Position numbers and translations under genes: made by a program. Source: Chiloscyllium plagiosum (Eukaryota). From it: a stretch of DNA of 56,004 bases. The stretch is taken from positions 8,562,773 to 8,618,776 of the forward strand of contig NC_057756.1 of the NCBI RefSeq assembly GCF_004010195.1, read 5' to 3'. The notes beneath the pieces are model-generated. The model saw only the letters and a program-made list of their open reading frames with translations, was not told the DNA's origin and searched no databases. Positions 3,816-46,809 of the stretch are shown piece after piece. Each line of letters begins with the position of its first letter. Positions within the stretch are counted from its first letter, which is position 1.

Positions 3816-4130
3816 CCCTGTGCTTCCAAGTTATGATGACTTGATCTGAGCCAGGAGGTTGTGACAGCACTTTTGCCCTGCAGGCAGTGATATGGGCTAC
3901 TGATCAGCTATAATCTCACTGAATGGAGGAACAGGCTGGAGGGGCTGAGTGGCCTATTTCTGTCCCCAAGCTGTTGATGGAAGCCGGTTTTATACTGTGG
4001 CCAGGCTACTCCAAAAACACTGAGGGGGGGTGGGTGCAGAGGTTTGGAAGGTGGCGGAGACGCACATGTCCGTGTCCTTCCTGAATTTGCTCGCCGGCTC
4101 TGAACACTTCTCTGTGATTATTTCCTGCAG

Positions 4131-17690: not shown

Positions 17691-17865
17691 GAATTATGTT
17701 CGAAGCCAACACTCCAGCGATCGAAATGAAGCATCGAATAGTGTCTCTTTGAGAGAGGTGACCTGTTCAGGTGAAGCACAGAGCCTTGTACCAACAGCAC
17801 CTGAGCATCAGGATGGAGCAGCTGGAGAACAAAACCTTCTGGGGAACGGGGCTGTCCAGCACTGA
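17691..17865 (+). CDS. Cytoplasmic-tail exon of a paralog (gene A) of the IgV membrane gene; upstream exons not visible
   Basis: Acceptor TCTCTTCTAG, phase 2. NYVRSQHSSDRNEASNSVSLREVTCSGEAQSLVPTAPEHQDGAAGEQNLLGNGAVQH* is homologous to 38940-39099. Flanks 17102-19750 align to ~38315-39990. Confidence 0.65.
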
Positions 17866-22099: not shown

Positions 22100-22655
22100 A
22101 ATTGAGGAGGGAGGGGGTGTGGGGTGGGGGGTCAGCAGGAGCGTGTACCAGGGGCCAGGGGACCAGATGGACAGACACACCGAGGGGGTGTGGGGGGTCA
22201 GCAGGAGCGTGTGCCAGGGGCCAGGGGACCAGATGGACAGANNNNNNNNNNNNNNNNNNNNNNNNNNNNNNNNNNNNNNNNNNNNNNNNNNNNNNNNNNN
22301 NNNNNNNNNNNNNNNNNNNNNNNNNNNNNNNNNNNNNNNNNNNNNNNNNNNNNNNNNNNNNNNNNNNNNNNNNNNNNNNNNNNNNNNNNNNNNNNNNNNN
22401 NNNNNNNNNNNNNNNNNNNNNNNNNNNNNNNNNNNNNNNNNNNNNNNNNNNNNNNNNNNNNNNNNNNNNNNNNNNNNNNNNNNNNNNNNNNNNNNNNNGA
22501 CACACCGAGAGGGTGTGGGGGGGTCAGCAGGAGCGTGTACCAGGGGCCAGGGGACCAGATGGACAGACACACTGAGGGGGTGTGGGGTTAGCAGGAGCAT
22601 GTACCAGGGGCCAGAGGACCAGATGGACGGACACACTGAGGGAGTGTGGGGGGAG
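22100..22655. repeat. G-rich ~68-bp tandem repeat spanning a gap (22242-22498)
   Basis: GGGGGGTCAGCAGGAGCGTGTACCAGGGGCCAGGGGACCAGATGGACAGACACACCGAG copies on both sides of the Ns. Confidence 0.85.
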
Positions 22656-24475: not shown

Positions 24476-25019
24476 TCAAAGTTCTGCAATGTTGCTGCAT
24501 TCAGCCTTTAATGGTGGGGAACCATTCAACATCGAGTGGGCGGTGACTCCATGTCCATCCGTATCCTCAATGATGGGGAAACCTTTATTTGCTCAAAGAG
24601 AAGGTGAGAGAGAGAGGAGAAGAGAGCACCCATTGGTGATCATCTTCCCACATTTCTATTCATCCTGCAATGGGTCTTGCAGATTGGAAGCTTGAAGATG
24701 CTCCCTGCTTCTTTATGAAACAGTGCAGCACCCAATGGGGAAACCTGCCATTCTTCCCTAGTCTTGTCTATATGTGACTCCAGTCACACATTAACCTGGT
24801 GGACATTTATAACTGCCCCTTGAAATGTCACGTCATGTCAAGCAGTTTGCAATCAAGCCCCCAGACAGGAAAATTATCATTCCCACAAGCTTGTGCAGAA
24901 GTTCACTCTTGGGTGTCCTCTAGATAACCAGTACATCAAAAACTGGGACATTCCTTTGTAGGTACAGGGCAGCACCACTTGCTCCCCAAAGAACCCAGTA
25001 ACTGGGACAGGCGAGTCAC
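24476..25019 (-). pseudogene. Inverted pseudogene (B) of the IgV gene family: partial V exon plus terminal-exon copy
   Basis: From 25019 downward: acceptor CTTTTCCAG|GTGACTCG, GDSPVPVTGFFGEQVVLPCTYKG, then a frameshift and the conserved Trp TGG>TAG. 24476-24588 copies the exon at 43185-43297 with acceptor AG>AA. Intron flank 25020-25270 matches 30110-30352. Confidence 0.8.
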
Positions 25020-25489
25020 CTGGAAAAGATTGAAAGTATTTATCCCTGCTGGTACATTACGTCCCAAGCTTCACATGGTTACACTGCGATGCTGGATTTA
25101 CAAGAAGCTCTGATCAGTAACTCACTGCTTTCATTTCTGGGGGAAGGTTAAAGCTCAGACATTGAGGGTCTTCATCTAAAAGCAGCTTGTGCTGGATATT
25201 TGTCAGCACTGAGCAGCTGGACAGCACTTTGAATCACATGGTTTCCATTTGGACACACAATGGAAGAACACAGCTGGATACTGGTTACTACCCTCAGGAC
25301 CAGGGTGGGGGTTGGGGGCACAGCTAGAAGAGGTACAATATTGGCTGATGTCAAAGTGTTTTGAACAGGTTGTGATGGACGAGTGCATTGTGCAGGGATG
25401 GTCTGAAAGGGGCCAAGGGAATGTGGATCCGCACATCCCTCCACCACTGAACTGTCTGATCATACTCCTCCTCCCAATACACTCAGACT

Positions 25490-26639: not shown

Positions 26640-27480
26640 GCTGCTCAGGAGTTTTGTGTTTGAACTTTTAACCTGTGACGGAACGGCCCTAAAAGGACAT
26701 CACCCCACGCTGTATCAGAGGAAGGATGCGGGCTCTGGGCTCTCCCATTCTCATAGCGAGGGGGGGGGGGAGGGAGGGAAGGTGTGAGGGATCCGGGTGC
26801 AGCCTCTGTCGGGAAAAGCCGGGCCAAAGCTGCTCTCCCCTGAAGGGATTGCAATGAGACAATGATCCGAATGGGGACTGCCGGAAAACTGTGGGTCCAG
26901 AACCGGGAGAGCAGAGAGGAAAAAGGGGCATGAATTGGTGCACCCCTGTCTCCCCACAATGTAGGTCAGTCTGCAGTTTGTAACTTGTTTTTATGAATGA
27001 GCCAAATGACCGGGAGTGAACCCAGGGTTAGCTCTGGGCTGTATCTGACTGAGACACGATCCGCTCTCCCTCCAACATCGAGTTTTACCAAATGTTTCTC
27101 AGCAGCTTCTCGGTCTCCTGTCAGTGTCTGACCCTGATCCTGATCGCAGTCCCGGTCCCGGTCCCGGTCCCGGGAAAGGAGCTGCAGGTACTTACTGTCA
27201 GTGTCTCCCACCCGGGGACACCGAGGGAGGGAGGGAGGGGGATCTGGGGAAACTTTCTGAGCAGTGAATCACCTCTTTATTAAAAGGAAACGCTGACAAT
27301 CTCAGACACAGACAGAAAGGGCTGGGACTTCTCAGAAGTTTATAAAGTGATGTGTGAGTGAACTGAGGGAGAGCGGAAGGTTTGGGATTGAAATGGTTAA
27401 ACTGTAGGGGATCATTGTCAGAGGGCGGCCCCTGTCCGTCATCGCCCGGGGACAGGGCGGGATAATCAACCTGATCAGGA
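26640..27480 (+). promoter_or_regulatory. CpG-enriched promoter / exon 1 region of IgV gene C
   Basis: Local CpG enrichment around the first exon. Weak NF-kB-like motifs GGGAAAAGCC (26811), GGGGAAACTTTC (~27247), GGGACTTCTC (~27325). Confidence 0.45.
27092..27187 (+). CDS. Gene C exon 1 (N-terminal leader)
   Basis: ATG at 27092; MFLSSFSVSCQCLTLILIAVPVPVPVPGKELQ; donor CAG|GTACTT; phase 0 matches exon 2. Kozak context is weak. Confidence 0.55.
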
Positions 27481-27524
27481 AGGGAATCTGTTGGAAAGGG
27501 ACTGACTGTGTTTTCTTGTTGCAG

Positions 27525-27597
27525 GGACACAGCTCCCAGAAACTACTCCCCCCGCTGCTGCTGCTGCTGCTGCTAAATGTTGTTGCTGCTGTTTCAG
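27525..27597 (+). CDS. Gene C exon 2 (signal peptide)
   Basis: Acceptor TTTTCTTGTTGCAG; GHSSQKLLPPLLLLLLLNVVAAVS; donor CAG|GTCAGT; phase 1. Confidence 0.8.
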
Positions 27598-27704
27598 GTC
27601 AGTGCTGGGACATTTCAGCAGTGATCAAAGGCTTGAAGGGGAGGGTGTGGAGGAGAATCAGGAATCCCTCTTGCTTTAAGTTGCAAGTGGACCCATTCAG
27701 GCAA

Positions 27705-28670
27705 AAGTCAAAATGTGTGGCGCTGGAAAAGCACAGCCGGTCAGGTAGCCCGCGAGGAACAGGAGAGGTAATGTTTCGGACATAAGCCCTTCATCAGGAA
27801 TGTGCAGTGGTATGGGGCTGAGAGATGAATAGGGGGCTGGGGCTCAGGGGAAGGAAGGTGGGAAGGCGATAGGTGAATGCGGGTGGTGGGTAACTGTGAT
27901 AGGTCGGTGGGGAGGATGGAGTGGATAGGTGGGAAGGAACATGGACAGGTAGGACAGGCGGTGCTGAGTTAGAGGGTTGGATCTGGGATGAGGTGGCTGG
28001 AGGGGACTTTTGGAAAGCAGTGAAGTCGATGTTGATTCCGTGTGCTTGAAGGGTCCCAAGGTGGAAGTTGGGTGTTCTTGTTCGAGTTGGTGGGTGGCGT
28101 TGACTTGGTAGTGGAGGAGGCCCAGGGTTTGTATGTCCTTGGGGGAATGGGAGGGGTAGTTGAAGTGGTTGGCCACAGGGTGGTGGGGTTGTTTGGTGCA
28201 TGAGTCCCAGCGATGTTCCCTGAACTGCTCCTCATGTTTGCGTCCTGTCTCCCCAGTGTAGAGGAGACCACATCGAGTGCAGTGGACACAGTAGATGAGG
28301 TGGGTGGATGCACAGGAAATTCTCTGCTGGAGGTGGAAGGATCCTTTGGGGCCTTGGGTGGAGGTGAGGGGGGGGTGTGGTGTGGGCACAGGTTTTATAC
28401 CTTGTGTGGTGGCAGGGGAAGGTGGAGGGTGGGTTGGTTGACAGTGTGGATCCAACCACAATAAGGATAGAACCACCCTGCTCCTCACCTTCCCTCACAC
28501 CCTCACTAATCTCCAGAAATAGCATATGCAATTTCTGCCACCTACAGTCACAGCCCATCACCAAGGACATATTTCCCTCTCCACCCCGATCCGTGTTCCA
28601 CAGAGATCATTCCCTCCGCAATTCCCTCATTAGGTCCATGTGCCCCCCACCCCCAACAACCTCCCAAAGT
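27705..28670 (-). mobile_element. Penelope-like retroelement 3' fragment (GIY-YIG endonuclease + pLTR with hammerhead core)
   Basis: CASTHLIYCVHCTRCGLLYTGETGRKHEEQFREH...PVANHFN (PLE GIY-YIG). The - strand has CTGATGA-A-GGGC-TTAT-GTCC-GAAA at 27774-27797. Confidence 0.8.
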
Positions 28671-29356
28671 TACTGAAGATTTGGTTGGGAGATGTGGGGT
28701 AACTCTCCACACGGTGTCGGGTTGAGGGTTCTGCAGGTTCTGGGTAAATCATTCACCCTGTTCTGTTTTCTCTGGTCAGTGTCCTCAGGGTAGTACCCAT
28801 TCCTTGTGGGATGAGTCTTCCTTCTCTCTGGGGTTGGGGAGGGGGGAGAGAGAGAGATGCTCCCCTGATGTTCCAATCTTGTGGAGCTGCGTATCTCCTG
28901 TTTCTTCTTTCCTTTCCCCCATAGTTTGACACTGTTACCTTTCTGACGCTGCCCCAGTTTATACTGATTTCTCACTAATCGACTTACACACTGAATACAA
29001 ATGCAAACTGCCTTGATTGGTCTCACGTACAGAAAGCTTTGTTTAAATGTGTATTGTTTCACTGTCTTTCATGGAACTGGTATTGTGGGGTAATGGGAAG
29101 TCTTGATTTTAAATGTTATACAGTGCATGAACTGCCTTCCTTTGGACTCTGATATATTTTCTCTAATCTCAAATGATAGTACACATCTCTGGAGCAGATG
29201 GAATTTGAACCTGGTCCTTCTGGCTCAGTGGCAGGGACACTACCACTGCACGATAAGCTCCCTCCAATAGGCTCTGACCTCTCCTTGATGATATCAAACC
29301 AGTGGATATCACTGTCTTTCCCCAGCCAATTTTCAGTCAGTGATGAGGTGATTTAG

Positions 29357-29700
29357 GGCAGCACGATGGTTCAGTGGTTTGCACTGCTGTCTCTCAGCGC
29401 CAGGGACCCAGATTTGATTCCAGCCTCCAGCGACTGTCTGTGTGGAGTTTGCACATTCTCCTCGTGTCTGCGTGGGTTTCCTCCGAATGCTCTGGTTTCC
29501 TCTCACAATCCATAGATGTGCAGGTTAGGGTGAATTGGCCATGCTAAATTGTCCATAGTGTTTAGGGCAGCGTAGGTTAGGTGTATTAGTCAGGGGTAAA
29601 CATAGGATAGGGGAATGGGTCTGTGTGGGTTACTCTTTGGAGAATCGGTGTGGACATGTTGGGTCAAAGGGTTTGTTTCCACACTGTAGGGATTCCATGA
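29357..29700 (+). mobile_element. HE1-type SINE
   Basis: Head, core and tail match the other copies. Confidence 0.8.
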
Positions 29701-30352
29701 GGTGATCTGGGTGGAGGTGATTTTTAGTTGAGTATTTGAAACACTTCGTCCTTTCTGCTCTTGGGGCAAGAAGCTAGCCTTGTTTTAAACAGGGCCCCTC
29801 TTCCCGAAACCGGAGAGCCATTCAGGGATTGGGCTTTGGGTTCTGAGGTGAGGCTGAATCAGGCTGTTTTGGGAGGTGGGTAGGAGCAAGATCTGATGGG
29901 TGAGTGGTGGAGGGAGGTGAGGATTCACATTGCCTCATCCCTTGCCTAGTGTATTCATCTGTCACTGTCCTCCCAACCCTGTCCAAAACACATCCTCAGG
30001 TACCCCTCCCAACACCCATTCCTGATTTACCTTTTGAGAGTCAGTTCACGTGTGAGCTCCATCTCGCATTGTGTACCCTCCGACCATCAGCCCCCATCCA
30101 GCCCATATCCCAGTGTGTGTCCAAATGGGAACCATGTGATTCAAAGTGCTGTCCAGTGCTCAGTGCTGACAAATGTCCAGCACAAGCTGCTTTTAGTTGA
30201 AGACCCTCAATGTCTGAGCTTTAACCTTCCCCCAGAAATGAAAGCAGAGCTTCTTGTAAATCCAGTATTGCAGTGTAACCATGTGAAGCTTGGGATGTAA
30301 TGTACCAGCAGGGAGGGTCTACCTATGGATAAATACTTTCAATCTTTTCCAG

Positions 30353-30697
30353 GTGACACGCCTGTCCCAGTTTCTGGGTTCCTTGGGGAGCAGGTTGTGC
30401 TGCCCTGTACCTACAAAGGGAATGGCTCAGTCTCTGATTTATGGGTAATCTGGAGGACACCCAAGATGGAAACTTTATATGAGTTTCTCGATGGGAGTGA
30501 TGATTTGGCCCAACAAGATCCACGGTTCAGAAACAGAACAAACCTGTTCAAAGATCAACTGGAACAAGGCAACTGGTCAGTTCTGATCTCTGACCTCAGG
30601 GAGACAGACCAGGATGAGTATCAGTGTTACATTCACAAGAGAGTCAGTGTGCACCATTTTTTGGAGCAGCGTGATCGTGTCTATCTGTCTGTAAGAG
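30353..30697 (+). CDS. Gene C exon 3: Ig V-set domain, B7/butyrophilin (ICOSL/CD276/HHLA2-like)
   Basis: VVLPCTY, VIWR, QDPRFRNRTNLFKDQLEQGNWSVLISDLRETDQDEYQC. Canonical phase 1/1 splice sites CCAG|GT and AG|GTGAGA. Confidence 0.92.
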
Positions 30698-30959
30698 GTG
30701 AGAGCTATCTCCTTCAGATATTCGGTATTTAGTTTCTGATTTTATGTCTGTGGTGGTGCAGGAATTATGTCACTGTGGCACACACTAAATTATCTGTTAA
30801 AATAAAAATCTGGAAATAGCAAGTTGGTCCCAATAAAAGTGACCATGAAGCTATTGCATTGCTGTAAAACCCCAGTTACCTGAAGTTACTTTATTCACTT
30901 ATGGGGCATGGGCATTTATTGCCTGTCCCCAATTACCCCTTGAGAAGGCAGTGGTCAGC

Positions 30960-33895
30960 TATCTTATACAGTCAGAGTCAGACAGCACAGAAACACACCC
31001 TTCAGTCCAACCAGTCCATGTGGACCATAATCCCAAACTAAACTCGTCCCACCTGCCTGCCATTGGCCCATATCCCTCCAAACATTTCTTATTCATGTAC
31101 TTATCGAAACCATCTTTTAAATGTTGTAGCTGTACCTGCATCCACGACTTGCTCTGGAAGTTCATTCCACATCTCTTATAGAATCAGAGAGATGTACAGC
31201 ACAGAAACAGACTCTTCGTCCAACTTGTCATGCTGACCTGATATCCCAGCCTCATTTAATCCCATTGGCCCATATCCCTCTAAAAGGAAGAAACAGGAGG
31301 TACGCAGCTCCACAGGATTGGAGCACCAGGGCAGCATCTTTCTCACACTCTCTCTCTCTCTTCCTATGGCTGTATCCATCCAGATGCCTTTTAAATGCTG
31401 TCATTGTACCAGCTTCCACCACTTCCTCTGGCAGCTGTCCCTTGTCGTTTTTTAATCTTTTTCCTCTCATCAAAAAAAATGCCTCTGCCCTCAGGAAAAG
31501 ACACCTGCCATTCACCTTCTCTGTACCCCTCATTATAAAATGAACCTCTTTATGTTCACCTCTCAACCTCCTACTCTCTCGTGAAAAAGGTCTAAGCTTG
31601 TTCTTACAACTCAAATCCTCCATTTCCGGCATTCCCTCCATTCTGAACCCGCTCCAGCTTAACAATATCCCTCCTGTAACAAGGAGACCAGGACTGGGCA
31701 CAGTACTCCAGAAGAGGCCTCACCAACATCATATACAACCTCAACATGACATCCCAACTCCGACACTCAAAGATCTGAGCAATGAAGGCAAGCAAGAGAA
31801 ATGACTTGTTAACCACTTAACCTTCTTGAACTTCAGCATATGTCCTGTAGCAGGTAGACCAACAATGGCTTTAGAGTGAATTCCAGGATATTGACCCAGC
31901 CACAGTGAGGGAAAAGTGATGTATTTCCAAGTTAGGGGTTCAGTGGTTTGGAGGGGAACCTCCATGTGATGGTATTCTCATGTGTCTGCTGTTCTGTTGC
32001 TCCAGATGAAAGTGGCTGTAGGTTTGGAAGGTGCTGTCGAAGAGTGTCTGGTGAATTTTTGCAGTGCATGTTATGGAATGTACACACTGAGCATCAGTGA
32101 TGGAGGGAGTGGATGTTTGTGGATGTGATGCTGAGAAGGTAACGAAACAGGTGGATGAAGGTAAAGCGGTTGATGTGGTGTATATGGACTTTTAGTAAGG
32201 CCTTTGATAAGGTTCCATATAGTAGGCTATTGCACAAAATACAGAGTTTCAGTATTGAAGGTCATTTAGCGGTTTGGATCAGAAATTGGCTAGCTGAAAG
32301 AAGACAGAGTGATGTTTGATGGGAAATGTTCATCCTGGAGCTCAGTTACCGGTGGTGTGCCGCAAGAATCCTTTTTGGGGCCACTACTGTTTGTCATTTT
32401 TATTAATGATCTGGATGTGGGCACAGAAGGATGGGTTAATAAATTTGCAGATGACACTAAGGTAGGCAGAGTTCTGGATAGTGCCGAAGGATGTTGTGGG
32501 TGACAGAGGGACATAGATAAGATGCAGAGCTGGGTTGAGAAGTGGAAATGGAGTTTAAAGCGGAAAAGTGTGAGGTAGTTCACTTTGGAAGAAGTAACAG
32601 GAATGCAGAGAACAGGGCTAATGGTAAAATTCTTGGCAGTGTGGTTGAACAGAGAGATCTCAGTGTCCAGGTGCATAAATCCCTGAAAAGTTGCCACCTA
32701 GGTTGATAGGGTTGTTAAGAAGGCATATGGTGTGTTGGCATTTGTTAGGAGGATTGAGTTTTGGAGCCATGAGATCATGCTTCAGTTGTACAAGACACTG
32801 GTAAGGCTGCATCTGGAGTGTTACATGCGGTTCTGGTCACCGCATTATAGGAAGGATATGGAAGCTTTGGAAAGGCTTCAGAGGAGAATTACTAGGATGT
32901 TACCTGGTATGGAAGGAAGGTCTTACGAGGAAAGGCTAGGGAACTGAGGCTGTTTTCGTTGGAGAGAAGGTGGTTGAGAGGTGACTTAATCGAAACGTAC
33001 AAGATAATTAGAGGGTTAGATAAGGTGGACAGTGAGATCCTTTTCCTTGGATGGTGAAGGCTAACACAAGGGGACATAGTTTTAAATTGAGGGGTGATAG
33101 ATTTAGGACAGATATCAGGGGTAGTTTCTTTACTCAGAGTAATAGGGGCGTGGAAAGACCTGCCTGCAATAGTAGTAGACTCACTGACATTAACGGCATT
33201 TAAATGGGCATTGGACACACATATGGATAATAATGGAACGGTGTAGGTTAGGTGGGCATCAGATTAATTTCACAGGTCAGCGCAACATCAAGGGCCGAAG
33301 GGCCTGTACTGCACTAAAACGTTGTATGTTCCACGCCAGTCCAGCAGGCTGCTTTGCCCTGGATGGTATCAAGCTTCTTGAGTGTTGTTGGATCTGTACC
33401 CATCCAGGGCAAATGGGGAGTATTCCATCACAGTCCTGACTTGTGCCTTGTAGATGGTGGACAAGCTTTGGGGAGTCAGGAGGTGAACTACTTGCTGCAG
33501 TATTCCCAAACCCTGACCTACTCTTAGAGCCGACTTCTGGTCAATAGTAACCCCGAGGATGTTGAGTAGTGGGGTATTCAGTGATGGTAATGCCTTTGAA
33601 TATCAAGGAGCAGTAGTTCGATTTGTTTCTTATTGGATGATGCCTGGCATTTGTGTGATGTGAATGTTACTTGCCACTTATCAGCCCAAGCCTGGGTATT
33701 GTCTAGGTCTTGCTGCATTTGAACATGGACTGCTTCAGTGTCTGAAGAGTTGTGAATGGTGCTGAGCATTATGCAATCACCGGTGAATATCCCCACTACT
33801 CACTTTATGCTGGAGGATAGGTCATTGAGGAAGCAGCTAAAGATGATTGGGCCTGGAACACTATCCTGAGGATCTCCTGCAGAGATGTCCTGGAG
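30960..33895. mobile_element. Nested CR1/LINE fragments in gene C intron 3, including a + strand CR1 RT 3' half at 32130-33330
   Basis: GVPQESFLGPLLFVIFINDLD...KFADDTK; multiple CR1 3'-end pieces. Confidence 0.75.
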
Positions 33896-33899
33896 TAGT

Positions 33900-36090
33900 G
33901 CCACTCCCCCTCCTCTCTTGCCTCCCTTTCTATCCTTCCTGTAGCATTTGTATAAGGGATAGCATTACAGCTATGCTGAGGGAGGATATTCCTGGAAATG
34001 CATCCAGGGAAGTTATTTGGGTGAAACTGAGAAATAAGAAAGGGATGATCACCTTATTGGGATTGAATTATAGACCCCCTAATAGTCAGAGGGAAATTGA
34101 GAAACAAACTTGGAAGGAGATCTCAGCTATCTGTAAGAATAATAGGGTATTTATGGTAGGGAGTTTTAACTTTCCAAACATCGACTGGGACTGCCATAGT
34201 GTTAAAGGTTTAGATGGAGAGGAATTTATTAAATGCGTACAAAACAATTTTCTGATTCAGAATGTGGATGTACCTACTAGAGAAGGTGCAAAACTTGACC
34301 TACTCTTGGGAAATAAGGCAGGGCAGGTGACTGAGGTGTCAGTGAGGGAGCATTTTGGGGCCAGCGACCATAATTCTATTCGTTTTAAAATAGTGATGGA
34401 AAAGGAGAGACCAGATCTAAAAGTTGAAGTTCTAAATGGAGAAAGGCCAATTTTGACGGTATTAGGCAAGAACTTTCGAAAGGTGATTGGAGGCAGATGT
34501 TTGCAGGTAAAGGGACGGCTGGAAAATGGGAAGCCTTCAGAAATGAGATAACAAGAATCCAGAGAAAGTATATTCTGTCAGGGTGAAAGGAAGGGCAGGT
34601 AGGTGTAGGGAATGCTAGATGACTAAAGAAAAAGAAGAAGCATATGTCATGTATAGACAGGATAGATCTAGTGAATCCTTAGAAGAGTATAAAGGAAGTA
34701 GGAGCACACTTAAGAGGGAAATCAGGAGGGCAAAAAGGGTACACGAGATAGCTTTGGCAAATAGAATTAAGAAGAATCCAAAGAGTTTTTACAAATATAT
34801 TAAGGACAAAAAGGTAACTCGGGAGAGAATAGGGCCCCTCAAAGATCAGCAAGGCGGCCTTTGTGTGGAGCCACAGAAAATGGGGGAGATACTAAATGAA
34901 TATTTTGCATCAGTATTTACTGTGGAAAAGGATATGGAAGATATAGACTGTAGGGAAATAGATGGTGACATCTTGCAAAATACTCCCTGGAATATCCTCC
35001 CTCAGTACAGACATAATGTTATCCCTAATCAAAAACCCTACTGCCCCATCTCTCTCGACCCTTTCTCTATTCTTCCTGTGACATCTATATCCTGGAACAT
35101 TAAGCTGTCAGTCTTGTCCATCCCTGAGCCACGTTTCTGTAATAGCTATGATATCCCAGTCCCATGTTCCCAACCATGCCCTGAGTTCATCTGCCTTACC
35201 TGTTAGGCCTCTTGCATCGAAATAAATAGTTAAATTTATCAGTCCTACCTCATTCTCTGCTTTGTTCCTGTCTGCCTTGACTTTTGGACTTGCTCTGTTT
35301 CCCAACTGCACCAGCCTGAGACTGATCTCTCTTCTCACTATCTTTCTTGGTCCCCCTGCCCCTTACTCATTTAAATCCTGGGTAGCTCGAGCAAATATTC
35401 CCACCAGTATTTTAGCCCCCTTCCAGTTCAGGTTCAATCCGTCCTTCTTATAGAGGTCACTTCTACCCCAGAAAAGATTCCAATGATCCAAAAATGTGAA
35501 TCCTTCTCCCATACACCAGCTCCTCAGCCATGCATTCATCTGATCTATCCTCCTGTTCCTACTCTCCCTAACACGTGGCACTGGAGTAATCCAGATTTTA
35601 CAATCCCTGAGGACCTACATTTTAATCCCCTCCCTAATTTCCTCTATTCTCTCCTCAGAACCTCATCCTTTTCTCTTCCTATGTTTTTGGTTCCAACAAC
35701 AACCTCCTGCTGGTCCCTCTCCCGTTTGAGAATATTCTACACCTTCTCCGAGACATCCTTGATCCTGGCACCAGGGAGGCAACACACCATTCTGATATGT
35801 TGTTATTGGCTGCAGAAACGTCTGTCTATGCTTCGGACTAGAGAGTCCCTTATCGTAGTCAATCGCGTGGAATCTGGCGTACCCCTCTTTACATTAGAGC
35901 CAGTCTCAGTACCAGAAACTATCAGTGTTACAGCCCCCTGAGAGTCCATCACCCCCTGCATTTTCCAAAACAGTCTACTTGTTTGAGATGGGGATAGTCA
36001 CAGGAGACTCCTGCACTACCTACCTACCCATCCTCCCTTTCTTTGAGGTAACCCATCTCCTGTATCTGTGGTTTTTCTCCCTTCCTGAAA
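33900..36090. mobile_element. Rearranged CR1: + strand endonuclease region (33950-34980) joined to - strand ORF1 esterase / EN start (34981-36090)
   Basis: YRPPNS...GSFNFPNIDW...LDLLL...SDHNSI on +; NAWLRSWC...LYKKDGL (SGNH esterase ORF1) and IIAITETWL on -. Confidence 0.75.
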
Positions 36091-36370
36091 CTGATACATT
36101 TTAAAATGGAGGTGTCACTGAACTGTATGAGCTAATGAGAGTCAGCGAGTAACAGTGGGTGATGTGAAAGGGACTTACTGCAGGGTTATGTTAAAAGGAC
36201 AGCAGAGTTTGGGGTGGACTGGAGGCAATGTGATACATTGACCAGGAGAATATTGGAACAGCTGTATCATAAAGAAAAAGATGAGGGTTTCAGCAGTTGA
36301 TGAGCTCAGAGGGAGGGAAGTGGAAGGTAGACATTAGATCTGTTTCACATTTCACTGTTGTGTTTTCCAG

Positions 36371-36439
36371 TTCATTCAACCCAAGGCCAAAGTGAAACCC
36401 CTGAAGCAGGTCATGGTGAGCGACTCAATACAACTGAAG
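36371..36439 (+). CDS. Gene C exon 4 (stalk); alternative donors after 36415 and 36439
   Basis: Acceptor TGTTTTCCAG; (V)HSTQGQSETPEAGHGERLNTTE; donors ATG|GTGAGC and AAG|GTAACC, both phase 1. Confidence 0.7.
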
Positions 36440-36699
36440 GTAACCCCCTTTGAAAGTGTATAATGCTGGGGGAGGCACAAAGGGGTGGATCAATGAGTAC
36501 AGCTAACCTCTGACCTCTAAGTCTGAAGGTCACAGGGTCAAATCCCTCTTTTTTAGACCCTGGGAAAAACAAGGGCGCTCACACCCTGCTGCTGCGGGCC
36601 CTGAAGGAGCACCACCCCATTGGGGGAGGAGCAGTACAGTGGGGGAGCACTATATTGTCATAGAGGGTGCAGTACATGGGCATCTGTCAGGGAGATGAT

Positions 36700-37030
36700 G
36701 GTACAGTGGGGGAATGCCACACTGTCAGGGGGAGGGTGGGATTGGGGGGGAATGTCACACTATCAGGGATGGGGGCACACCTCAGTGAAAGGGTGGGACT
36801 GGGGCGCGGGTGCCACACTGTTGGGGAGAGGGTGGGACTGGGGCGGCACACTCAGGGGAGGGTGGTACTGGGGGTGTGCCACATTGTCAGGGAGAGGGTG
36901 AGACTTGGGGAGCTCCACCCTGTCAGGGAGAGGGTGGGACTGGGGCGAAGGTACCACACTGTCAGGGAGAGGGTGGGACTGGGGCGAAGGTGCCACACTG
37001 TCAGGAAGAGGGTGGGACTGAGGCGAGTGG
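36700..37030. repeat. G-rich tandem repeat (TGCCACACTGTCAGGGAGAGGGTGGGACTGGGG)
   Basis: About 8 degenerate copies. Confidence 0.8.
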
Positions 37031-37353
37031 GAACAGACTCTGAGCCAGGGATTGAATCAGGAAACAACAAAGACACACCCGGCCCAGTTGTAAATCCAGA
37101 CCCTCCTCAGTAACATCTGGAGACTGGTTCAGATGTTGGGAGACTCTTTAACATGGTCAGTCAGTGTGTGTGTGTGTGGGATGGTCTGGTGTGTGTGATT
37201 ATTGGGATCTAACCTCCCACATCCCTCCAGGACTAGAATTACCCAGGGATCTGTTTGTACTGGGGCTGGTTCTGAAACACGAGGTGCTGAAGGTCTCTGC
37301 TGTTAGTTTTGTTTGTGTGTCCCAGTCTGATAATGGCTTCATTCTGTCTCTAG

Positions 37354-37456
37354 GTCCTGGACTCGCCACTGGAGCAAGAGTTGGATTGGGAATTGGGATT
37401 GCTGCTGGGATTGGTGCTGGAATTGTGGGTTACATTGTCCTCAAGCGACAAAGAAG
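37354..37456 (+). CDS. Gene C exon 5 (transmembrane)
   Basis: Acceptor TTCTGTCTCTAG; PGLATGARVGLGIGIAAGIGAGIVGYIVLKRQR; donor AAG|GTGAGT; phase 1/2. Confidence 0.85.
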
Positions 37457-38939
37457 GTGAGTTCTGGAATGTTCCACTATTTCCATGGTAACCCTTTGAT
37501 CTTTGTATAACATTGTGTGAAACGTTGCTGAGCTCTGTCCCTGCCCATTCCCTGAGCTGTGAGGATGCTTCAATCCAGCCTGTCATTGAGCAGCAGCATC
37601 CAGTCACTTCCAGCTTGTCATCCTCTCGCTGCTGAACAGTCCCGTGGATTGGAAAGGAGCAAATATTATCCCACTGGAGAGCCAGAGGATGGGGCATATA
37701 TTGTGAATTTCAGGAGGTATTTGAGAAGGTGCCACAGAATAGGTTGTTGTACAAGATGAAGACTCAGGGGATTGGGGGGTAATATAGCATGGATTGTGGA
37801 TTGGTTAATGGATAGGAACCGAGCAGGAACAAATGGGTCATTGTCAGTTGTCAGGATGTAACTGGTGCTGCAAGGATCAGTGCTGGGACCTCAGTGACTG
37901 AGATGAGGGGATAGAGTGGGATTGTCCCAGTTTGTTGCTGATACAAAGCTCAATGGGAAAGTAAGCTGTGAGGAGGATACAGAGGCTGCAAACAGGGATA
38001 CGCTGGTTCACGTTTATACTCCGTGTGGGTGTGGATGTTCCATCGTTAAATCTGTTTCAGACTGAGATGGACAGATTTGAACATTCCCATTCTTTTTCCA
38101 ATCCCTCATTGGTCTCAGCCCTCCCTATCTGTAACCACCTTCAGCTGTATAGCCTCAGATCTGTGTGCTCCTATCTCCCTGATATTTCCATTGCTGCCCC
38201 ACTGGTGGCTGTGCCTGGGTCTGTAGCTCAGCATTTCCCGATAGAAACCTCTTTGGGTTTCTCTCCCTCTGTCTCTGCCCCTCTCGGTTTGTCTCTTCCT
38301 CCCCCCTCCAACTCCTCAGCTGCCTGGCTCTGAAGCTCTGCAATTCCTTAGCTGACCTCTTTGTCCGAGTTTCTCTCCCTCTGTCCCTCTCTGTCTCTCC
38401 AATGCCTCTCCCTTGTCTTTTCCTACACTGCAATGTGCAAAGTGCTATCAAAATGCAAGTTGTTGCTCATTTTCCTACACTTGTCAAACCACCCAGCACA
38501 TCGGTTATCCTGGGCATCAGAGGTTTCAATCACTGGGAAGCCCATCACAGATTTCCTTGTTTCCCTCAGATTTCCTTGTTTCTCTCTCTCAATATCCGTA
38601 TCTCTGTGCTCCCTGCCTTTCCCCATGTACAGCCCTCACAGTGGGAGGAGGAACTATTGCAGGGCTCTCTCACTCTCTCCTCTGGCCCTCCCTCTGTCAG
38701 TCAGCACAGCTCCTGTGGAGTGTCCAGCTCTTGCCCATTGCCTCCCTTATGACCCTCCTCTCCTCTATACTCTGTTCTCCATCACCGTGCAGCTCCTATC
38801 ACCCAATTTCCAGCTGCCATTGGTCTCCAGGAAGATGAGGATCATTTAATGGGTCTGATCTCCTGAACAGCTCCTTGACACACCTGTCCAAAGTGTTGGA
38901 TTCCTTTAACCTGTTCTCTGGTGGATTCTGTCTCCACAG

Positions 38940-39099
38940 GAAACAAAATCTACACAAGATGGCAGCATCAAATGGTGACCCTATGAGAGAGATGACCTGT
39001 TCAGGTGAAGCACGGAGCCTTGTACCAACAGCACCTGAGCATCAGGATGGAGCGGCAGGAGAACGAAACCTTCTGGGGAATGGGGCTGTCCAGCACTGA
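38940..39099 (+). CDS. Gene C exon 6 (cytoplasmic tail)
   Basis: Acceptor TCTGTCTCCACAG; phase 2 fits exon 5; KQNLHKMAASNGDPMREMTCSGEARSLVPTAPEHQDGAAGERNLLGNGAVQH*. Possible internal donor after 39004. Confidence 0.75.
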
Positions 39100-40129
39100 C
39101 TGAGTTTCCACCACACTGAGCGTGGCTCAGGGAGGGGGAATCAGCCCAGTGTTAAGGGGATCGAGTGAATCGTGGTGGAAAGTCTGAGTTTAAGATTGGG
39201 ATCAACAATCACTTCCTGCTTTGCACAAACCCTTCTGAACAGCACAATCTCAGGAGGTAAACTCCCAGTGGGAGTGTTATCCCAATACTAGAAAAACTGT
39301 CCATTTCATCCTCTGTATTATATCAGCATTACTGTTACAGTCTGTGTCCAAACACTGTCTCAGGGTTCAGCTGTGTAACCCTGTGTAATGCTAATCCTGT
39401 GAGATATTTTTCACAGGTAATTTCTTTATTCTTAATTAAGAACTTGTTCTCAGTGTGAGTGATGCTGCCAGGGCCCCATTTATTGTCCATGTGACCTTGA
39501 CTCACTGCAGTCTTTGGAGTGATGGTGCTCCCACAGCGGGGAACACAGAAAGTGGCTTCAGAAACTCCCACTGCAGCAGCGCCTACTGGGCAAAGCCAGG
39601 AACACACTATTGCCTGCAGTATTGTCATGTAGTGGAGGTATTGATCATGTGTTGATCTTATGCAGATATGTCCTGTATGTTTATTTATGACTCTTGTTTA
39701 CAAAACAAGATGGTAAATATTTTATATGCAGATATTTCTATATTTTTATCCTGGATATTTCTTACATTTCTACCTCTGCTTTTTGTTCTGAGCTGTGATT
39801 AAAGAAAAGCTGCCTACAGTCTGATGTTTATTGACACTGCGGTCACTGCATGAACAGAGGGGCTGCTGTCTACAGGCAGTAAGCCCCTGATACGACTTGG
39901 AGAGAATGGAATTGGCTGAAGACTGGGATCAGTGATGATGGGAATCTCAGGAGGAGCAGGAACATTTATCCAGTCGGTGTTCCTGGCTGGAGATGTTCTG
40001 TGAACTCTTCAGTCTTTGACATTGTGCCAAGGGGAGGTACATAGGAGCAGGAGTCGGCCAATTAAGTTGTTTGAGCCTGGTCTGCCATTCTCGATCCTGG
40101 CTGATCATCTACTTCAAAAGAACAAAACA

Positions 40130-40748: not shown

Positions 40749-43008
40749 TGTAATGAAGATGTGGGTATACTATATCTTTAAAAGAGTAAATGCTAGCAGT
40801 GCTAGCACCAAGTATTCTCAATAAGACATAATGTAACATGTGCTCCAGCTACTAGACTAATGCTATTGTACATGAAGTGGACGTCGGAAATACTGCTCTG
40901 ATAAAACAACACCCCTACTGGCTTCCAAAGCCAGACCAGTTCATAAGGAGGTGGAGGCCATGCTCGATGAGGACATCATCGAACCAAGCCAGAGTGAGTG
41001 GAGGTATCCGATTGTCTTAGTTCCCAAACCGGATGGGGCACAATGATTCTGCGTGGATTATCGGAAGGTCAACACTGTTACCAAATCGGACTCATATCCA
41101 ATTCCTAGACTGGAGGACTTAATTGAGAAAGTCAGATAAGCCAGTTACATCACTAAGTTGGACTTAATGCGTGGTTACTGGCAGGTACCTTTATCAGAAT
41201 TGGTGAAAACAATTTCCGCATTTGTAACCCCAAATGGGCTATATCAGTTTAAAGTGATGCCCTTTGGAATGAAGAACGCACCTACCACATTCCAAAGACT
41301 CATGAACAGAGTTGTGGATGGGTTAACAAACTGTGTGGTCTATTTGGACGATGTAGTGATCTTTAGTAAGTCCTGGAAAGATCACATGATACAGCTGGCA
41401 GAGCTCTTTGAATGACTATGAGAAGCAAAACTGGTGATAAACTTAAATAAAATGGAATTCGCGAAAGCAGAGGTGACATTCTTGGGATATAACATTGGTC
41501 ATGGAAGATTGACCCCACGGAATGCAAAGACGAAGGCCACCAAGAAATTTCCATGACCCATCTCGAAGAAAGAGGTGCTTCGATTCTTAGGACTCAGCGG
41601 ATTCTATTGGAAGTTTCTTCCAAATTTCAGCAGTGTAGTGGCACTGTTAACCGATATGCTGAAGAAGAACACAAAGTTTCGGTGGATAGAACAATGCCAG
41701 GAGGCATTCGATCATTTGAAGTCAATATTAACCACCAAACCAGTTTTAGCTATACCAAACTTTTCAAACCTTTTAAATTCGCCAGCAATGCTTGTGACAT
41801 TGGAGTTGGAGCTGTACTCCCACAGGAAGATGAAGATGGGATTGAACTGCCACTTGGTTAGTTTTTGAAGAAGATCAACATCCACCAAAGGAAATACTCC
41901 ACAATCAAAAAAGAACGATTGAGTTTGGTACTGCCTTACAACATTTTAACATGAACAAAGTGTCAGAGACGGTTGTGTACCTGACCACAATCTGCTTACA
42001 TTCTTAGAACTCTTTAAAGACAAGAATATGAGACTATTTTAGTTGGACTCTTATATTACAGACTTTTAATTTAAAAACCGTATATGTTGTCGATTGGAAG
42101 AATGTAATCGCGTAATCACGGATTTAACTGATAGAGTTTAAATAAGATTTGTCTTTATTTAATGTTATATAGGTAAATGAGAAGAAGTTCGGGAGAACTT
42201 ATATTAAAGTTCTCTGTATGTTAGGGTAATGTGTTTAGAAAGTAGAGAAAAAGAAAAGCCATCTTTTCTTCATAGTAGTTCATTCTTTCTTAAGGGGGTG
42301 GTGTTATGAAGATGTGGGTCTATTATACATTTAAGAGATAAAAGCTCGCAGTGACAGCACCAAGTGTTCTCAATAAGACACAATGTAGCACTTGCTGCAG
42401 CTACTGGGGTAGCTAGTTGCCTGGAAACAACAAAACAGATTTAAATTTGGCCAATCAGGTTAAATTATATCCCAAAAAATACCAAATTCCAATCAAGTTT
42501 GAATTGAGTATATTGACAATCTTAAAGGCCAATGATACAATCCGATTCTTTGGGGTATAAGACTGGGGAAAATTGAATAGTTGGGAGGAGAATTGCCACC
42601 AGACCAACAGATGTAGACTGCTAGTCAAAACTCTGAGAGGTACCTGTCTGGAGAAGGAGTTTGCACAGAGAAAAACCTCAACACTGACCTGGAGAGCCAT
42701 TCTACTGACTAAGATAAAAAGAAGATTGGATTGCTGGCTGGTTTTAAAATTGGAATTTTCCTGTAAATCTTAATTGGGAGTCTTATCGGACTAGTACTTT
42801 GGAAGGGAAGGTAAAGATAGGTTATAGGAAGGAGATGTAAATAGTTGTTAGTTAATTATTCTCTGTTATACTTTAAGAAACGAAGTTGTTAATTTTTCCT
42901 TTAAATAGTTCTTGGCCACTTGAATTTTTACAGATTACCGTATGGGATATGTTATTTCTGTGTTACTGGTTTTAAATTAAGCAGGACGGTTTACCCTGTG
43001 TTGTAACA
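40749..43008 (+). mobile_element. Internally deleted Ty3/Gypsy LTR retrotransposon (likely Gmr1-like)
   Basis: Partial 5' LTR from 40749. Degenerate RT (LDLMRGYWQVPL, MPFGMKNAPTTFQR, YLDD) and RNase H. PPT AAGGGGGTGG before the 3' LTR TG...CA at 42302-43008. TSD ACTG at 40745-40748 and 43009-43012. Confidence 0.88.
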
Positions 43009-43297: not shown

Positions 43298-46104
43298 TGG
43301 TGTGAACACTTTATTTTGCATTGACTCCATTTCAGGAAGGGTTTACATTTATACAACACGTTTCAGGTCTGTATGACATCCAGAAATGCTTCCCTCTCAG
43401 TGAAGGGACTGTTGTAATCTCCGAATGATGGTGGTTAATTTGTGCACAGTAAGCTCCCACACGTAGCACTGTCATAATGATCAGATTCTCTGTTTGATTT
43501 TAAATGCTGGTGGTTGAGGGGGATATTGACCCAAAAGTGAGGATGTAGGAGGAAAGAGTTCTTTATCAGTTACAGGATAGGACAGCATGGAAGGAGGCTG
43601 TTTGGCCCTTCATATTTTGGCTGGCCCCCCTCTTCTCAAATCATTTTAACCATTTACACCTCAATCAGACCACCCAGTAATCTTTTACAGCGAGGAGAGG
43701 ATCTTGTGGTACAGTGGTAGTGTCCCTATCTCTGAGTCAGATGACTTAGGTTCAAGCAATCCCCCTGCCCTGAGATGTATAATACCATCTCTGAATGGTG
43801 TGAGTCAAGAACAGGTCTTACAGAGAGAGTGTCAAAGCTGAGACTGTGCAGCCTGTCCTCCTGATGTTACCCTTTTCACTTTGCTCTCATTCTGGTTAAT
43901 TCACAGTGTGCCCTCTCCCTCATAAATCCTTCCTGGGGTGCAGTGCCCACAATTGAACACTGTGACTCCAGGTCAGTGTGGTGGGGAGGGGTGTGTTTAA
44001 CCAACTCGAAGCCCCTCTGAGCCAGCATTACATTGCTGAGCAATTTGACAGAGTCACTCCCTGTTCCATCCTTTACAGAGGCTGCTCTCACTTTTTCACA
44101 TGGACAGTGGCTAGGGGTGGGATTGAGGGGGGGGGGTCACATTTCAACATCTCACAGACTCAGGGAGTCGGACAGGATGTTTCAGAAAGATCAGGTTTGA
44201 GATAACAGGAAACAGGAATTTCAGAAATAAAACAATTCCAGACTGGATGCAGGAACAATGTTTCACCTTGGCCAGGGCTCCAGAGCAAGGGGTCACAGCC
44301 TCAGGATACGGGAGAGGCCATTTCAGACTGAGCTGAGGAGAAATGTCTTCACTCAGAGGACAGTGAACCTGTGGGATTCTCTCCCACAGAAAGCTGTGGA
44401 GGGGAAATCACTGAATATGTTTCAGAAAACCCAGATACATTCCTTGAGGCTGAAGGTGTTGAGGGTTATGCGGAGAGAGTGGGAGTACAGTGTCATAGAG
44501 GATTGTGCCTCATGAAAAGCCGAGCCTGGTTTTACTAGTAAGACCTAACCTTTCCCTGATCCCCTGAAACACTTGCAGCTGGAATAAAGATTGGTGAATC
44601 TTAACTTTGACCCAGCAAATTCCTGCAGCCCCTATGAGGTTTCAAAATGTCTGGTTGTATTGGATATGACCTCCCGCTGAGGTGATGTTTATTCCCACCT
44701 GCTCCAGGTGATCATGGAAACATGTTCCACTCCAAATACAAACCTCCCGTCTGTGTATCTGTTCATTCACTTTCCTTCTCATTTCTGCATTTCGATAGTG
44801 CTGCACATTCTGTGACCTGCCTTAACCTCGCTTTTACAATCATTGGGTGGGATTAAACAATGTTTAGGGTCATTGGTTTGTTGAAAGTGTACATTTAGCA
44901 AGATGACAGCTGAGTAAGATGCTCCAGCCAGTGCTTTTCTGCTTGCCAGTTCTCTTTGTTTCTTCTCTCTCTCTGCTGCAGTTTGTCTTCATCCCACATC
45001 CCAACTTTTAACTTGTTAAACCATCCTACCTGGAGGGAATGGAGAACGGAGTCTGAGACCAGCCTGGCTCGACAGACGAGTCACAGCTGGAGTGGGAGTG
45101 CGGATAGAGCCCAGAGCGGGGAGTAGAGACACAGACAGAGCCCGGAACAGGAGTAGAGGCACAGACAGAGCCTGGAGTGGGGAGCAGAGCTGCACTGGAG
45201 CCTGAAGCGGGAAGCAGGAGCAGGAGTAGACAAAGCCCAGGCCAGCTGGGGGGGGATGAGTCCGGGACAGAAACCAGTGCGTGGAGGCAGTTTGGACTCA
45301 TATTCTGAAACCTGGTGGGCATGGACCCAGTGAAAAAAGAAGAATGACTTGAGTACTTTATAGATACTTTTTATTCTCATTCTGGTATTTTAAACTCTGT
45401 ATTCCCATGCTTGTCTATTTGTATTTATTACTATTTGAATTCTGTAACAACATTTAAAGTACCTGTACCTAGGTACCCTGGGTTTTGGAAAGGCTGCTTG
45501 GGAGGGGCTGTGGGTCCCACCTCCTGCAGCCCAACCTCTGGAGACAGAAGGACCATGTTTCTGGGGAGGAAGTGCAGGTTCTCACACCGTTAACCCCTTC
45601 CATTACCCAGTTTGGTAGCTCCAGCCTTCAGGGCTCAGCCAGCTCGCTCAGTGTGGTTTATTACTGAGTGACCTTTGGGGATGGACAGGGAAGACCCACT
45701 CAGTTAACACTGTGTCTGTGTGACCCTCAGTGCTTCCTCCAAGTGGGGGTGAACATTGTGGGGTATCCATTGATCAGCTGAGGGAGAGCAGTAGGTGAGA
45801 ATCAGTAGAAGGTTTCCAAGCCCATGTCTGACCTGAGTCTGACAGATTTCACGGGCTCAGAGTCAATGTTGAGGAGTCCCAAGGTTGTTCCCACATGATT
45901 GCATACCATTGTACTGCCATTTCTGGTGGGTCTATGTGACCAGTGTGTTATGAAATGGAGGTCAACACTCCTCTACTGATTAAACCCGAAACACCCACAG
46001 TAGTTCACCTCACCTGGTAATTTGATAAAAGTAGTATGATGAGGAGAGTAACCTACCTCTTACCCCAATTTGTTATAAAGGAGTAATTAAATAAAATGGA
46101 CTCC

Positions 46105-46460
46105 CTGATACTCACTTCATACTCATCCTGGTCTGTCTCCTTGAGGTCAGAAATCAGATCTGACCAGTTGCCTTGTTCCAGTTGATCTTTGCTGAAAATG
46201 TGTTGCTGGAAAAGCGCAGCAGGTCAGGCAGCATCCAGGGAACAGGAGAATCGACATTTCGGGCATCAGGTTTGTTCTGTTTGCAAACCTTGGGTCTTGT
46301 TCTGTCAAATAATCACTCTCATTGATGAATGTCTGAACATTTCATGCTCTGATATCCCCCAAATTACCAATAAATCAGAGACTGGTACATTCTCTTTGTA
46401 GATACAATGCAGTACAGCCTGCTCCCCAAGGACCCCCAAAACTGGTACATGGGAGTGACA
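46105..46460 (-). pseudogene. Inverted V-exon pseudogene (D) of the IgV family
   Basis: Reverse complement is homologous to 30353-30630 (QDPRFANRTNL, KDQLEQGNWS, ETDQDEY). Acceptor lost (CCAG>TCTG). ~75-bp Penelope-type insertion at 46191-46266. Flank 46460-46700 matches 30110-30350. Confidence 0.8.
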
Positions 46461-46809
46461 CAGAAAAGATTGAAAGTATTCATTTACAGATAGACCCTCC
46501 CTGCTGGTACATTACATCCCAAGCTTCACATGGTTACATTGCGATGCTGGATTTACAAAAAGCTCTGATCAGTAACTCACTGCTTTCATTTCTGTGGGAA
46601 AGTTAAAGCTCAGACATTGAGGGTCTTCAACTAAAAAGCATTTTGTGCTAGATATCTGTAAACACAGAGCAGCTAGACAGCATTTTGTATCACATGTTTT
46701 CTAATGTACACATGATGGGAGAACATGTTGGGATAGCTGTCAGACCCCTTTGGGAGAAACATATGCAGTCTAGTCCCTGTATTTTAAAATAAAGTATACT
46801 TGATAGAAT

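What the first reader, a model, noticed from the sequence alone, without database searches (positions are those of the whole stretch)
27092..39099. Complete hidden 6-exon gene: leader, signal peptide, IgV, short stalk, TM, tail (~281 aa, no IgC, no B30.2)
Exons 27092-27187, 27525-27597, 30353-30697, 36371-36439, 37354-37456 and 38940-39099 all have GT-AG sites. Junction phases are 0,1,1,1,2 and give an open 846-nt CDS. The tail has no tyrosine, so no ITIM/ITAM. The architecture is V-only B7-like.
Basis: partly seen in the sequence, partly recalled or inferred. Interest (0 to 1): 0.7.

Follow-up and report, generated by a model that had tools for sequence, protein, structure and literature searches.

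The report
Shark single-domain B7-like surface protein gene
This is a real six-exon shark gene, already in public gene models, for a predicted cell-surface protein with one B7-type immunoglobulin domain and no tyrosine signalling motif; it is one copy in a shark gene cluster whose members appear to swap exons, and it likely serves as a ligand for immune-cell receptors.

Summary
The gene is real but not hidden. All six exons, GT-AG sites and phases check out, and the 281-aa product is letter for letter RefSeq XP_043539187.1 ('CD86-like', Chiloscyllium plagiosum). Contigs of three probable RNA runs show the stalk-TM junction and leave the genome at both ends of the V exon; the V-stalk, TM-tail and exon 1-2 joints were not seen directly. 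No IgC exon lies in the gap-free introns, and 0 of 86 family records carry one. The V domain is B7/butyrophilin-type (nearest B7-H4, B7-H3, PD-L1, MOG) but forms its own clade, found in 12 shark species, so the CD86 name is unsupported. The gene lies in a ~420-kb cluster beside nectin-like and IRG-GTPase genes. Variation concentrates on the predicted binding face, without proof of positive selection. New here: the same leader/TM/tail frame also carries a second, degenerate Ig-like domain, and this gene looks like a hybrid: its stalk type comes with that domain elsewhere, and its glycine-rich TM exon is 103/103 identical to that of such a gene. Likely a ligand, evolving like chicken BG genes; function untested.

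The parts
27092..27187 (+). Coding exon 1, 32 codons, with a (GTCCCG)x4 repeat and a first hydrophobic stretch; most relatives have only about 7 codons here
   Evidence: same exon in carpet-shark records; ATG context weak, in-frame stop at 27050, no other in-frame ATG before the V domain; not tested on RNA
27525..27597 (+). Exon 2, leucine-rich signal-peptide core (predicted cleavage near VAAVSG/D)
   Evidence: one contig leaves the genome at 30350, where an exon 2-3 splice predicts
30353..30697 (+). Exon 3, B7/butyrophilin-type IgV domain (C75, W90, C148; sequons N80, N117, N130)
   Evidence: Pfam V-set E 1.2e-9; PDB B7-H4, B7-H3, MOG, PD-L1; fold pLDDT 79-93 over most of the domain, Foldseek MOG/PD-L1/BTN3; contigs with 0-1 differences
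36371..36439 (+). Exon 4, 23-codon stalk of 'type 2' (sequon N191), the type that accompanies the degenerate Ig-like domain in other family genes
   Evidence: joined to exon 5 in three runs
37354..37456 (+). Exon 5, glycine-rich predicted TM (G201-G205-G209-G213-G217 spacing) and basic anchor KRQR; identical to the TM exon of the gene at G000:C47:8756170-8756272(-)
   Evidence: GT..AG joint of 914 nt in X1, X2, X18
38940..39099 (+). Exon 6 coding part: tyrosine-free tail with the family's conserved end TAPEHQDGAAGE(R/Q)NLL; stop TGA
39100..39820 (+). 3' UTR with ATTAAA at 39798 (end approximate)
   Evidence: long contigs over 39015-39673 with 0-3 differences and falling depth beyond 39596
17691..17865 (+). 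Last coding exon of a paralogue whose other exons were not found (assembly gaps upstream)
24907..25263 (-). Truncated, frameshifted V-exon copy (pseudo-exon)
46077..46699 (-). Broken V-exon copy with stops and a repeat insertion (pseudo-exon)

Best explanation
This spliced shark gene encodes a predicted type I surface glycoprotein with a single B7-type IgV domain that likely works as a ligand: its variable GFCC' face would be read by receptors on immune cells, while its tyrosine-free tail likely handles sorting or anchoring rather than signalling. Shown: exon structure, identity with a RefSeq model, V-type fold, absence of IgC, B30.2, ITIM/ITAM and charged TM residues, cluster organisation, variation concentrated on the C-C'/F-G half, exon-level mosaic similarity. 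Inferred: signal cleavage, membrane insertion, ligand role, and that the copy arose by duplication and exon-level recombination or gene conversion, taking its stalk and recently its TM exon from a neighbour with a different ectodomain.
For: Model equals XP_043539187.1. Stalk-TM joint in 3 of 3 contig runs; unique intron bins near zero depth against 5-26 on exons 4-6; contigs leave the genome at 30350, 30697 and 37352 as splicing predicts. Best solved relatives are ligands of the B7/butyrophilin group. Of 47 family records with TM and family tail, 0 have an ITAM, 1 an ITIM-like match (a PRDM fusion model) and 1 a charged TM residue, so this is not a paired-receptor family. Mean column entropy 1.65 on the C-C'/F-G half against 0.56 elsewhere. 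A paralogue 47 kb away (LOC122544203) is listed in 47.7% of endothelial and 40.3% of other cells in a bamboo-shark single-cell table (PMC11372145 supplement), which fits broad display. Mosaic: TM exon 103/103 with the X-type gene but stalk 57/69 and tail 125/160; tail closest to another copy, 150/160. B7 proteins act as ligands of CD28-family receptors (PMC11599192 passages).
Against: No partner is identified and no function was tested. dN/dS among 7 intact V exons stays below 1 on both halves (0.64 and 0.37; pN/pS of the front half 0.73, 0.53-1.05), and synonymous divergence is also higher on the front half, so positive selection is not shown; the partition was drawn after seeing the alignment. 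The V-stalk, TM-tail and exon 1-2 joints were not among the rows shown (80 joint rows hidden); one TM contig leaves the genome at 37454, three bases before a TM-tail splice predicts; the stalk-TM joint could also come from the X-type gene, which shares the TM exon; in run X2 the main TM contig is a different, more hydrophobic variant; the runs are only guessed to be RNA and the raw-read run laid nothing. The TM ranks 44 of 47 in hydrophobicity and AlphaFold did not model it confidently. Expression data are for a paralogue, not this gene.
Confidence: 0.55

Rival explanations
1. The front face varies because microbes or parasites bind it: the proteins are exploited attachment sites or decoys, as proposed for the chicken BG region, and a host receptor is secondary or absent.
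For: Birth-and-death cluster with at least 5 broken V exons beside 7 intact ones; front-face variability; BG-region genes diversify by cassette exchange in loops, read as recognition of many ligands (PMC5043582 abstract).
Against: dN/dS below 1; no binding data; compatible with, not exclusive of, the ligand reading.
Confidence: 0.2
2. It is a cell-adhesion molecule of the nectin/CEACAM/myelin-P0 style, binding itself or paralogues in trans and oligomerising through the glycine-zipper TM.
For: Neighbour is a nectin/PVR-like gene; GxxxG repeats in the TM; conserved tyrosine-free tail end; broad expression of a paralogue.
Against: The V domain is closer to B7-H4/B7-H3/PD-L1 than to nectins or sodium-channel beta subunits (profile E 6e-18 for B7-H4 against 1e-10 for SCN4B); the long zipper is confined to this gene and one neighbour, not the family; no clear PDZ-type end.
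Confidence: 0.13
3. It is a signalling receptor that uses the conserved non-tyrosine tail motif (PEHQ...ExxLL) or an adaptor.
For: Tail residues 259-274 are as conserved as the Ig core across sharks (entropy mostly 0-0.7); pN/pS 0.44 over 7 open tail copies.
Against: No ITIM, ITAM or charged TM residue; the motif matches no canonical consensus that I recall exactly; conservation may partly reflect conversion between copies.
Confidence: 0.07
4. It is the shark CD86 (or B7-H3/B7-H4) orthologue, as the database names suggest.
For: RefSeq name 'CD86-like'; the weakly supported sister group in the tree includes a conventional V-C B7 locus with CD80/CD86/ICOSL among its hits (87/74).
Against: CD86 is not among the 60 best of 104 PDB hits shown; no IgC; the family is a separate clade (100/99, stem 0.89) and other B7-like V exons lie on other contigs; family members carry many different automatic names.
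Confidence: 0.03
5. It is a decaying or poorly anchored copy: transcribed, but the long leader and weak TM give little surface protein.
For: Weak ATG context and lost ancestral-type short start; TM near the family's low end; many pseudogene neighbours.
Against: Open frame; 88%-identical intact counterpart in C. punctatum (P0058); V plus type-2 stalk in three carpet-shark genera; strong basic anchor after the TM.
Confidence: 0.05

Closest known systems
RefSeq XP_043539187.1 'T-lymphocyte activation antigen CD86-like' (Chiloscyllium plagiosum)
   Same: Identical, 281 of 281 residues.
   Different: Nothing in sequence; the name is an automatic label that the tree and architecture do not support.
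B7 family ligands (B7-H4/VTCN1, B7-H3/CD276, PD-L1, CD80/CD86, ICOSL)
   Same: IgV of the same type by sequence and fold; type I layout; no signalling motif.
   Different: No IgC in the gene or in 86 family records; multi-copy cluster with V and V-V forms; separate clade; receptor unknown.
Chicken BG genes (PMC4046983 abstract and passages; PMC5043582 abstract)
   Same: B7/butyrophilin-type single V, TM, tandem cluster, hybrid genes, expansion and contraction, segmental exchange.
   Different: BG has a heptad-repeat coiled-coil tail from many small exons, a CDR1 cysteine dimer and MHC linkage; here a single-exon 57-aa tail, only the two canonical V cysteines, and nectin/IRG neighbours. Analogy, not orthology.
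MOG
   Same: Single B7-type V plus TM; top Foldseek hit.
   Different: MOG is single-copy with a second hydrophobic segment in the tail (recalled); none here; 23% identity.
Butyrophilins and teleost tandem-V butyrophilin-like proteins
   Same: Next-nearest database hits, 26-38% identity.
   Different: No IgC, no B30.2; butyrophilin-like V exons of this genome on contig C37 fall in another part of the tree.

Membership tests
B7 family (canonical) | B7-type IgV domain | tested here: met
   Pfam V-set, PDB and Foldseek best hits B7-H4, B7-H3, PD-L1, MOG, BTN
B7 family (canonical) | IgV followed by IgC | tested here: not met
   No C exon in introns; 0 of 86 family records hit a C-domain profile at E<1, 3 of 3 controls did
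B7 family (canonical) | Binds a CD28-family receptor | not testable with these tools
   No binding data
CD86 / CD276 / VTCN1 orthologue | Groups with the named gene in a tree; single-copy V-C architecture | tested here: not met
   Own clade 100/99; V-C B7 loci elsewhere in G000. The tree held no named mammalian sequences, so the sister group stays open
Butyrophilins | IgV-IgC and cytoplasmic B30.2 | tested here: not met
   57-aa tail, Pfam gives only Ig families for P0015
Chicken BG | Single V in a tandem cluster with hybrid genes | tested here: met
Chicken BG | Heptad-repeat tail from many small exons; CDR1 cysteine dimer | tested here: not met
   Single tail exon; only C75 and C148 in the V domain
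MOG | Second hydrophobic segment after the TM (recalled) | tested here: not met
   Hydropathy scan finds none after residue 226
Paired Ig receptors / NKp30-type activating receptors | ITIM-bearing members or charged TM residue | tested here: not met
   0 ITAM, 1 ITIM-like (fusion model), 1 charged TM among 47 records
Type I membrane protein | Cleaved signal peptide and one TM helix | tested here: inconclusive
   Two N-terminal hydrophobic stretches and a marginal TM by simple scales; SignalP and DeepTMHMM not available

The most novel reading that the evidence does not exclude
Sharks have a modular surface-protein locus in which one leader-stalk-TM-tail frame is loaded with interchangeable ectodomains (B7-type V, V-V, or an unnamed degenerate Ig-like domain), reshuffled by exon-level recombination into a polymorphic self-marker or pathogen-sensing system, a cartilaginous-fish counterpart of chicken BG that arose independently in the nectin/CEACAM region, with an unrecognised tyrosine-free tail motif as its common output.
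Probability: 0.25. Interest if true: 0.6.

Novelty: new member of a known kind. Interest (0 to 1): 0.3.

Why it matters
As a gene model it adds nothing to public annotation. Its value is the family: a shark expansion of constant-domain-free B7-type proteins that I found described in none of nine literature searches, and whose automatic names (CD86-like, CD276, ICOSL, MOG, SCN4B) can mislead shark immunology. If they are ligands, they give candidates for the orphan CD28-family receptors reported in sharks (PMC11599192, passages) and a second, independent case of BG-like evolution in the oldest lineage with adaptive immunity.

Tried and rejected
Hidden IgC or second ectodomain exon in the introns: none by Pfam, candidate-exon scan or tblastn with the degenerate domain. 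Alternative short first exon of the MAGQEQQ/MDGKQMQ type upstream in the window: not found. Positive selection: not shown. Homodimer prediction of the V domain: no verdict, score 0.00, alignment not used; no evidence either way. Run search: no RNA holder on record; raw single-cell run X20 laid 0 reads at about 6% sampling, no test. Exons 1-2 were not covered by a read lay. Relatives in rays or chimaeras: none named among the hits, but 123 of the 130 distant representatives were not named, so absence is not shown. Degenerate domain: no Pfam family above cut-off, one self hit in the word search, atlas leads under or at 0.91, low-confidence fold with Ig V/I-set matches at Z up to 6.9. Expression of this gene in the single-cell supplement: its gene ID is not known to me; a guessed ID and 'CD86' gave 0 rows in a file cut when stored. 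Flajnik et al. 2012 (PMC3709836), the paper most likely to treat shark B7 genes, is not held and was not seen.
Full report
Observation. Replacing the boundaries with random AG/GT sites within 150 nt gave an open frame in 0 of 5000 draws, a crude control. The product is identical to P0015, RefSeq XP_043539187.1 'T-lymphocyte activation antigen CD86-like' of Chiloscyllium plagiosum.

Transcription. No holder was on record as RNA. I laid 4 of the 24 listed runs on 30200-39900. In three contig runs (X1, X2: guessed RNA; X18: kind unknown; two studies) the 914-nt stalk-TM intron appears as a GT..AG joint. Depth is 5-26 on the bins of exons 4-6 and 0-0.4 on two unique intron bins (36032-36355, 36680-37003). 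V-exon contigs differ by 0-1 letters, while paralogous V exons are at most about 90% identical, and contigs leave the genome at 30350, 30697 and 37352, exactly where splicing to the neighbouring exon predicts. Against: the V-stalk and TM-tail joints are not among the 15 rows shown (80 hidden, crowded out by repeats); one TM contig ends at 37454, not the predicted 37457; the stalk-TM joint could also come from a paralogue with the same TM exon; X2's main TM contig is a different variant; the raw-read run X20 laid nothing; exons 1-2 were not covered.

No constant domain. Introns 2-5 contain no N; no phase-1 candidate exon of 225-345 nt was found in introns 3 or 4. Of 34 intronic plus-strand open frames of 60 aa or more, 33 were scanned: none hit an Ig family, one is a LINE endonuclease, and the control C2 exon scored E 2e-15. 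A genome search with PF08205 found no match between C47:8.53 and 10.2 Mb (150 of 302 candidates scored). A C-domain profile hit 0 of 86 family records at E<1 and 3 of 3 controls, two of them close to the profile's inputs.

What the domain is. Pfam V-set, E 1.2e-9. Best single-domain PDB match is B7-H4 (E 1.8e-15), with B7-H3, MOG, BTN1A1 and PD-L1 following; CD86 is not among the 60 shown of 104; the family profile gives the same order. The AlphaFold model is confident only over the V domain (block pLDDT 70-93; overall 61) and matches MOG, PD-L1 and BTN3.

The family. All 56 hits of the first search and 76 of 78 of the second are named shark proteins, from 12 species; the other two are an unnamed record and a gar protein at 31%. 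In the exhaustive search, the 20 of the best 150 at 53% identity or more are shark records and the other 130 are at 38% or less; 7 of those were named (five bony fish, a frog, a horn-shark V-C B7). A tree of 46 V domains (22 genome loci, 24 database proteins chosen by score) makes the family a clade at 100/99 on a long stem; its sister, two conventional shark B7 loci, has only 87/74, and butyrophilin-like exons on C37 and the B7-H3-like and B7-H4-like loci fall elsewhere. No named mammalian sequence was in the tree, so origin is open, but orthology to CD86 is unsupported.

The cluster. The window is G000:C47:8562773-8618776. In 656 kb around it (76,308 N) I mapped 7 intact V exons in 5 genes (three V, two V-V), at least 5 broken V exons, orphan exons, and two genes of another ectodomain type, in both orientations. 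Upstream lie an IRG GTPase frame and a nectin/PVR-like gene.

A hybrid gene. Some records share the leader, TM and tail but carry a ~90-aa Cys-rich domain (X) instead of V; its weak fold evidence points to a degenerate Ig domain. No X exon lies in this gene, yet its stalk is the type that accompanies X in catshark, basking shark and carpet-shark records and accompanies V only in carpet sharks (6 records). Its TM exon is 103/103 identical to that of the X gene about 155 kb away on the other strand, whereas stalk and tail are 57/69 and 125/160, and the tail is closest to a third copy (150/160). The C. punctatum counterpart has a different TM. I infer recent conversion of a ~470-nt tract; an assembly artefact is not excluded.

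Anatomy and mechanism. Leader: two hydrophobic stretches (8-26, 39-57); paralogues start only 7 codons before the exon 1 donor, this subgroup uses an upstream ATG in weak context with no alternative before the V domain. TM: six glycines in 19 residues with i+4 spacing, +0.7 on a recalled insertion scale against a family median of -1.5, rank 44 of 47, followed by KRQRRK. Tail: no tyrosine; family-wide 0 ITAM, 1 ITIM-like match (a fusion model), 1 charged TM in 47 records; the end TAPEHQ...E(Q/R)NLL is as conserved as the Ig core and resembles, without matching, acidic dileucine sorting signals (recalled). V domain: entropy over 23 proteins is 1.65 on strands C, C', F, G and their loops and 0.56 elsewhere (0 of 20,000 permutations; partition post hoc, sequences related), but dN/dS over the 7 intact exons is 0.64 and 0.37, and dS is itself higher on the front half, which fits segmental exchange as well as selection. 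The GFCC' face is the usual receptor-binding face of B7 proteins (established knowledge). A neighbour paralogue appears in 47.7% of endothelial and 40.3% of other cells. The best reading is a broadly displayed, diversifying ligand (0.55); pathogen-driven decoy, adhesion molecule, non-tyrosine receptor, decayed copy and true CD86 are the rivals.

Literature. Nine searches listed no paper on this shark family. Seen: PMC4046983 abstract and passages, PMC5043582 abstract (chicken BG); PMC11599192 passages; PMC7677710 passages, 0 hits for CD276 or butyrophilin; PMC11372145 main-text term search, 0 hits, and rows of a truncated supplement; PMC12227049 and PMC3964593 only reference-list hits. Flajnik et al. 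2012 was not held, subscription papers are missing, and unseen supplements may list these genes. Earlier notes of this scan already describe the family in horn shark and another gene of this cluster; they are not independent support.

Verdict. Observation confirmed, interpretation supported, gene already annotated. A new member of a known kind (V-only B7/butyrophilin-type proteins in a dynamic cluster). Interest 0.3; the ectodomain-swapping frame is the part worth following.

Noticed in passing
G000:C47:8751480-8761366 (-), L044-L045: Gene with the family's leader, stalk, TM and tail but a 92-codon Cys-rich exon in place of the V. Relatives in five shark species (P0035, P0074-P0079, P0083-P0085). 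No Pfam name; a low-confidence fold resembles Ig V/I-set domains (Z 6.9). One whale-shark model has both this domain and a V.
   Followed up: partly
window 37175-37643 vs G000:C47:8755983-8756453: 471-nt tract 97.5% identical around the TM exon, flanked by 76-88% identity: recent gene conversion or assembly artefact.
   Followed up: partly
G000:C47:8724051-8725300 (-): Orphan copy of the exon 1 end, intron 1 and exon 2, 95.4% over 1255 nt and 100% over exon 2, with no V exon found next to it.
   Followed up: no
window 4104-4814 (+): Open frame of an interferon-inducible (IRG/IIGP) GTPase, Pfam E 2.7e-40.
   Followed up: partly
G000:C47:8524272-8529879 (-), L087: Nectin/PVR-like gene (V and C2 exons) about 33 kb upstream of the window. 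With the IRG gene this recalls human 19q13 (from memory).
   Followed up: partly
window 17691-17865 (+), 24907-25263 (-), 46077-46699 (-): Orphan tail exon and two broken V exons of the same family.
   Followed up: partly
G000:C47:8809306-8822050 (-): Second degenerate-domain gene type with a longer tail; this assembly shows an in-frame stop in the tail exon and its ectodomain exon was not found.
   Followed up: no
window 33847-35450 and 41140-41865: LINE endonuclease/RT remnants in intron 3 (Pfam) and an LTR-type RT remnant downstream of the gene (by eye).
   Followed up: no
window 462-2039, 15142-16266, 53806-54881: Long tandem arrays of 32, 28 and 33 bp; N runs at 16602-17101 and 22242-22498.
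   Followed up: no
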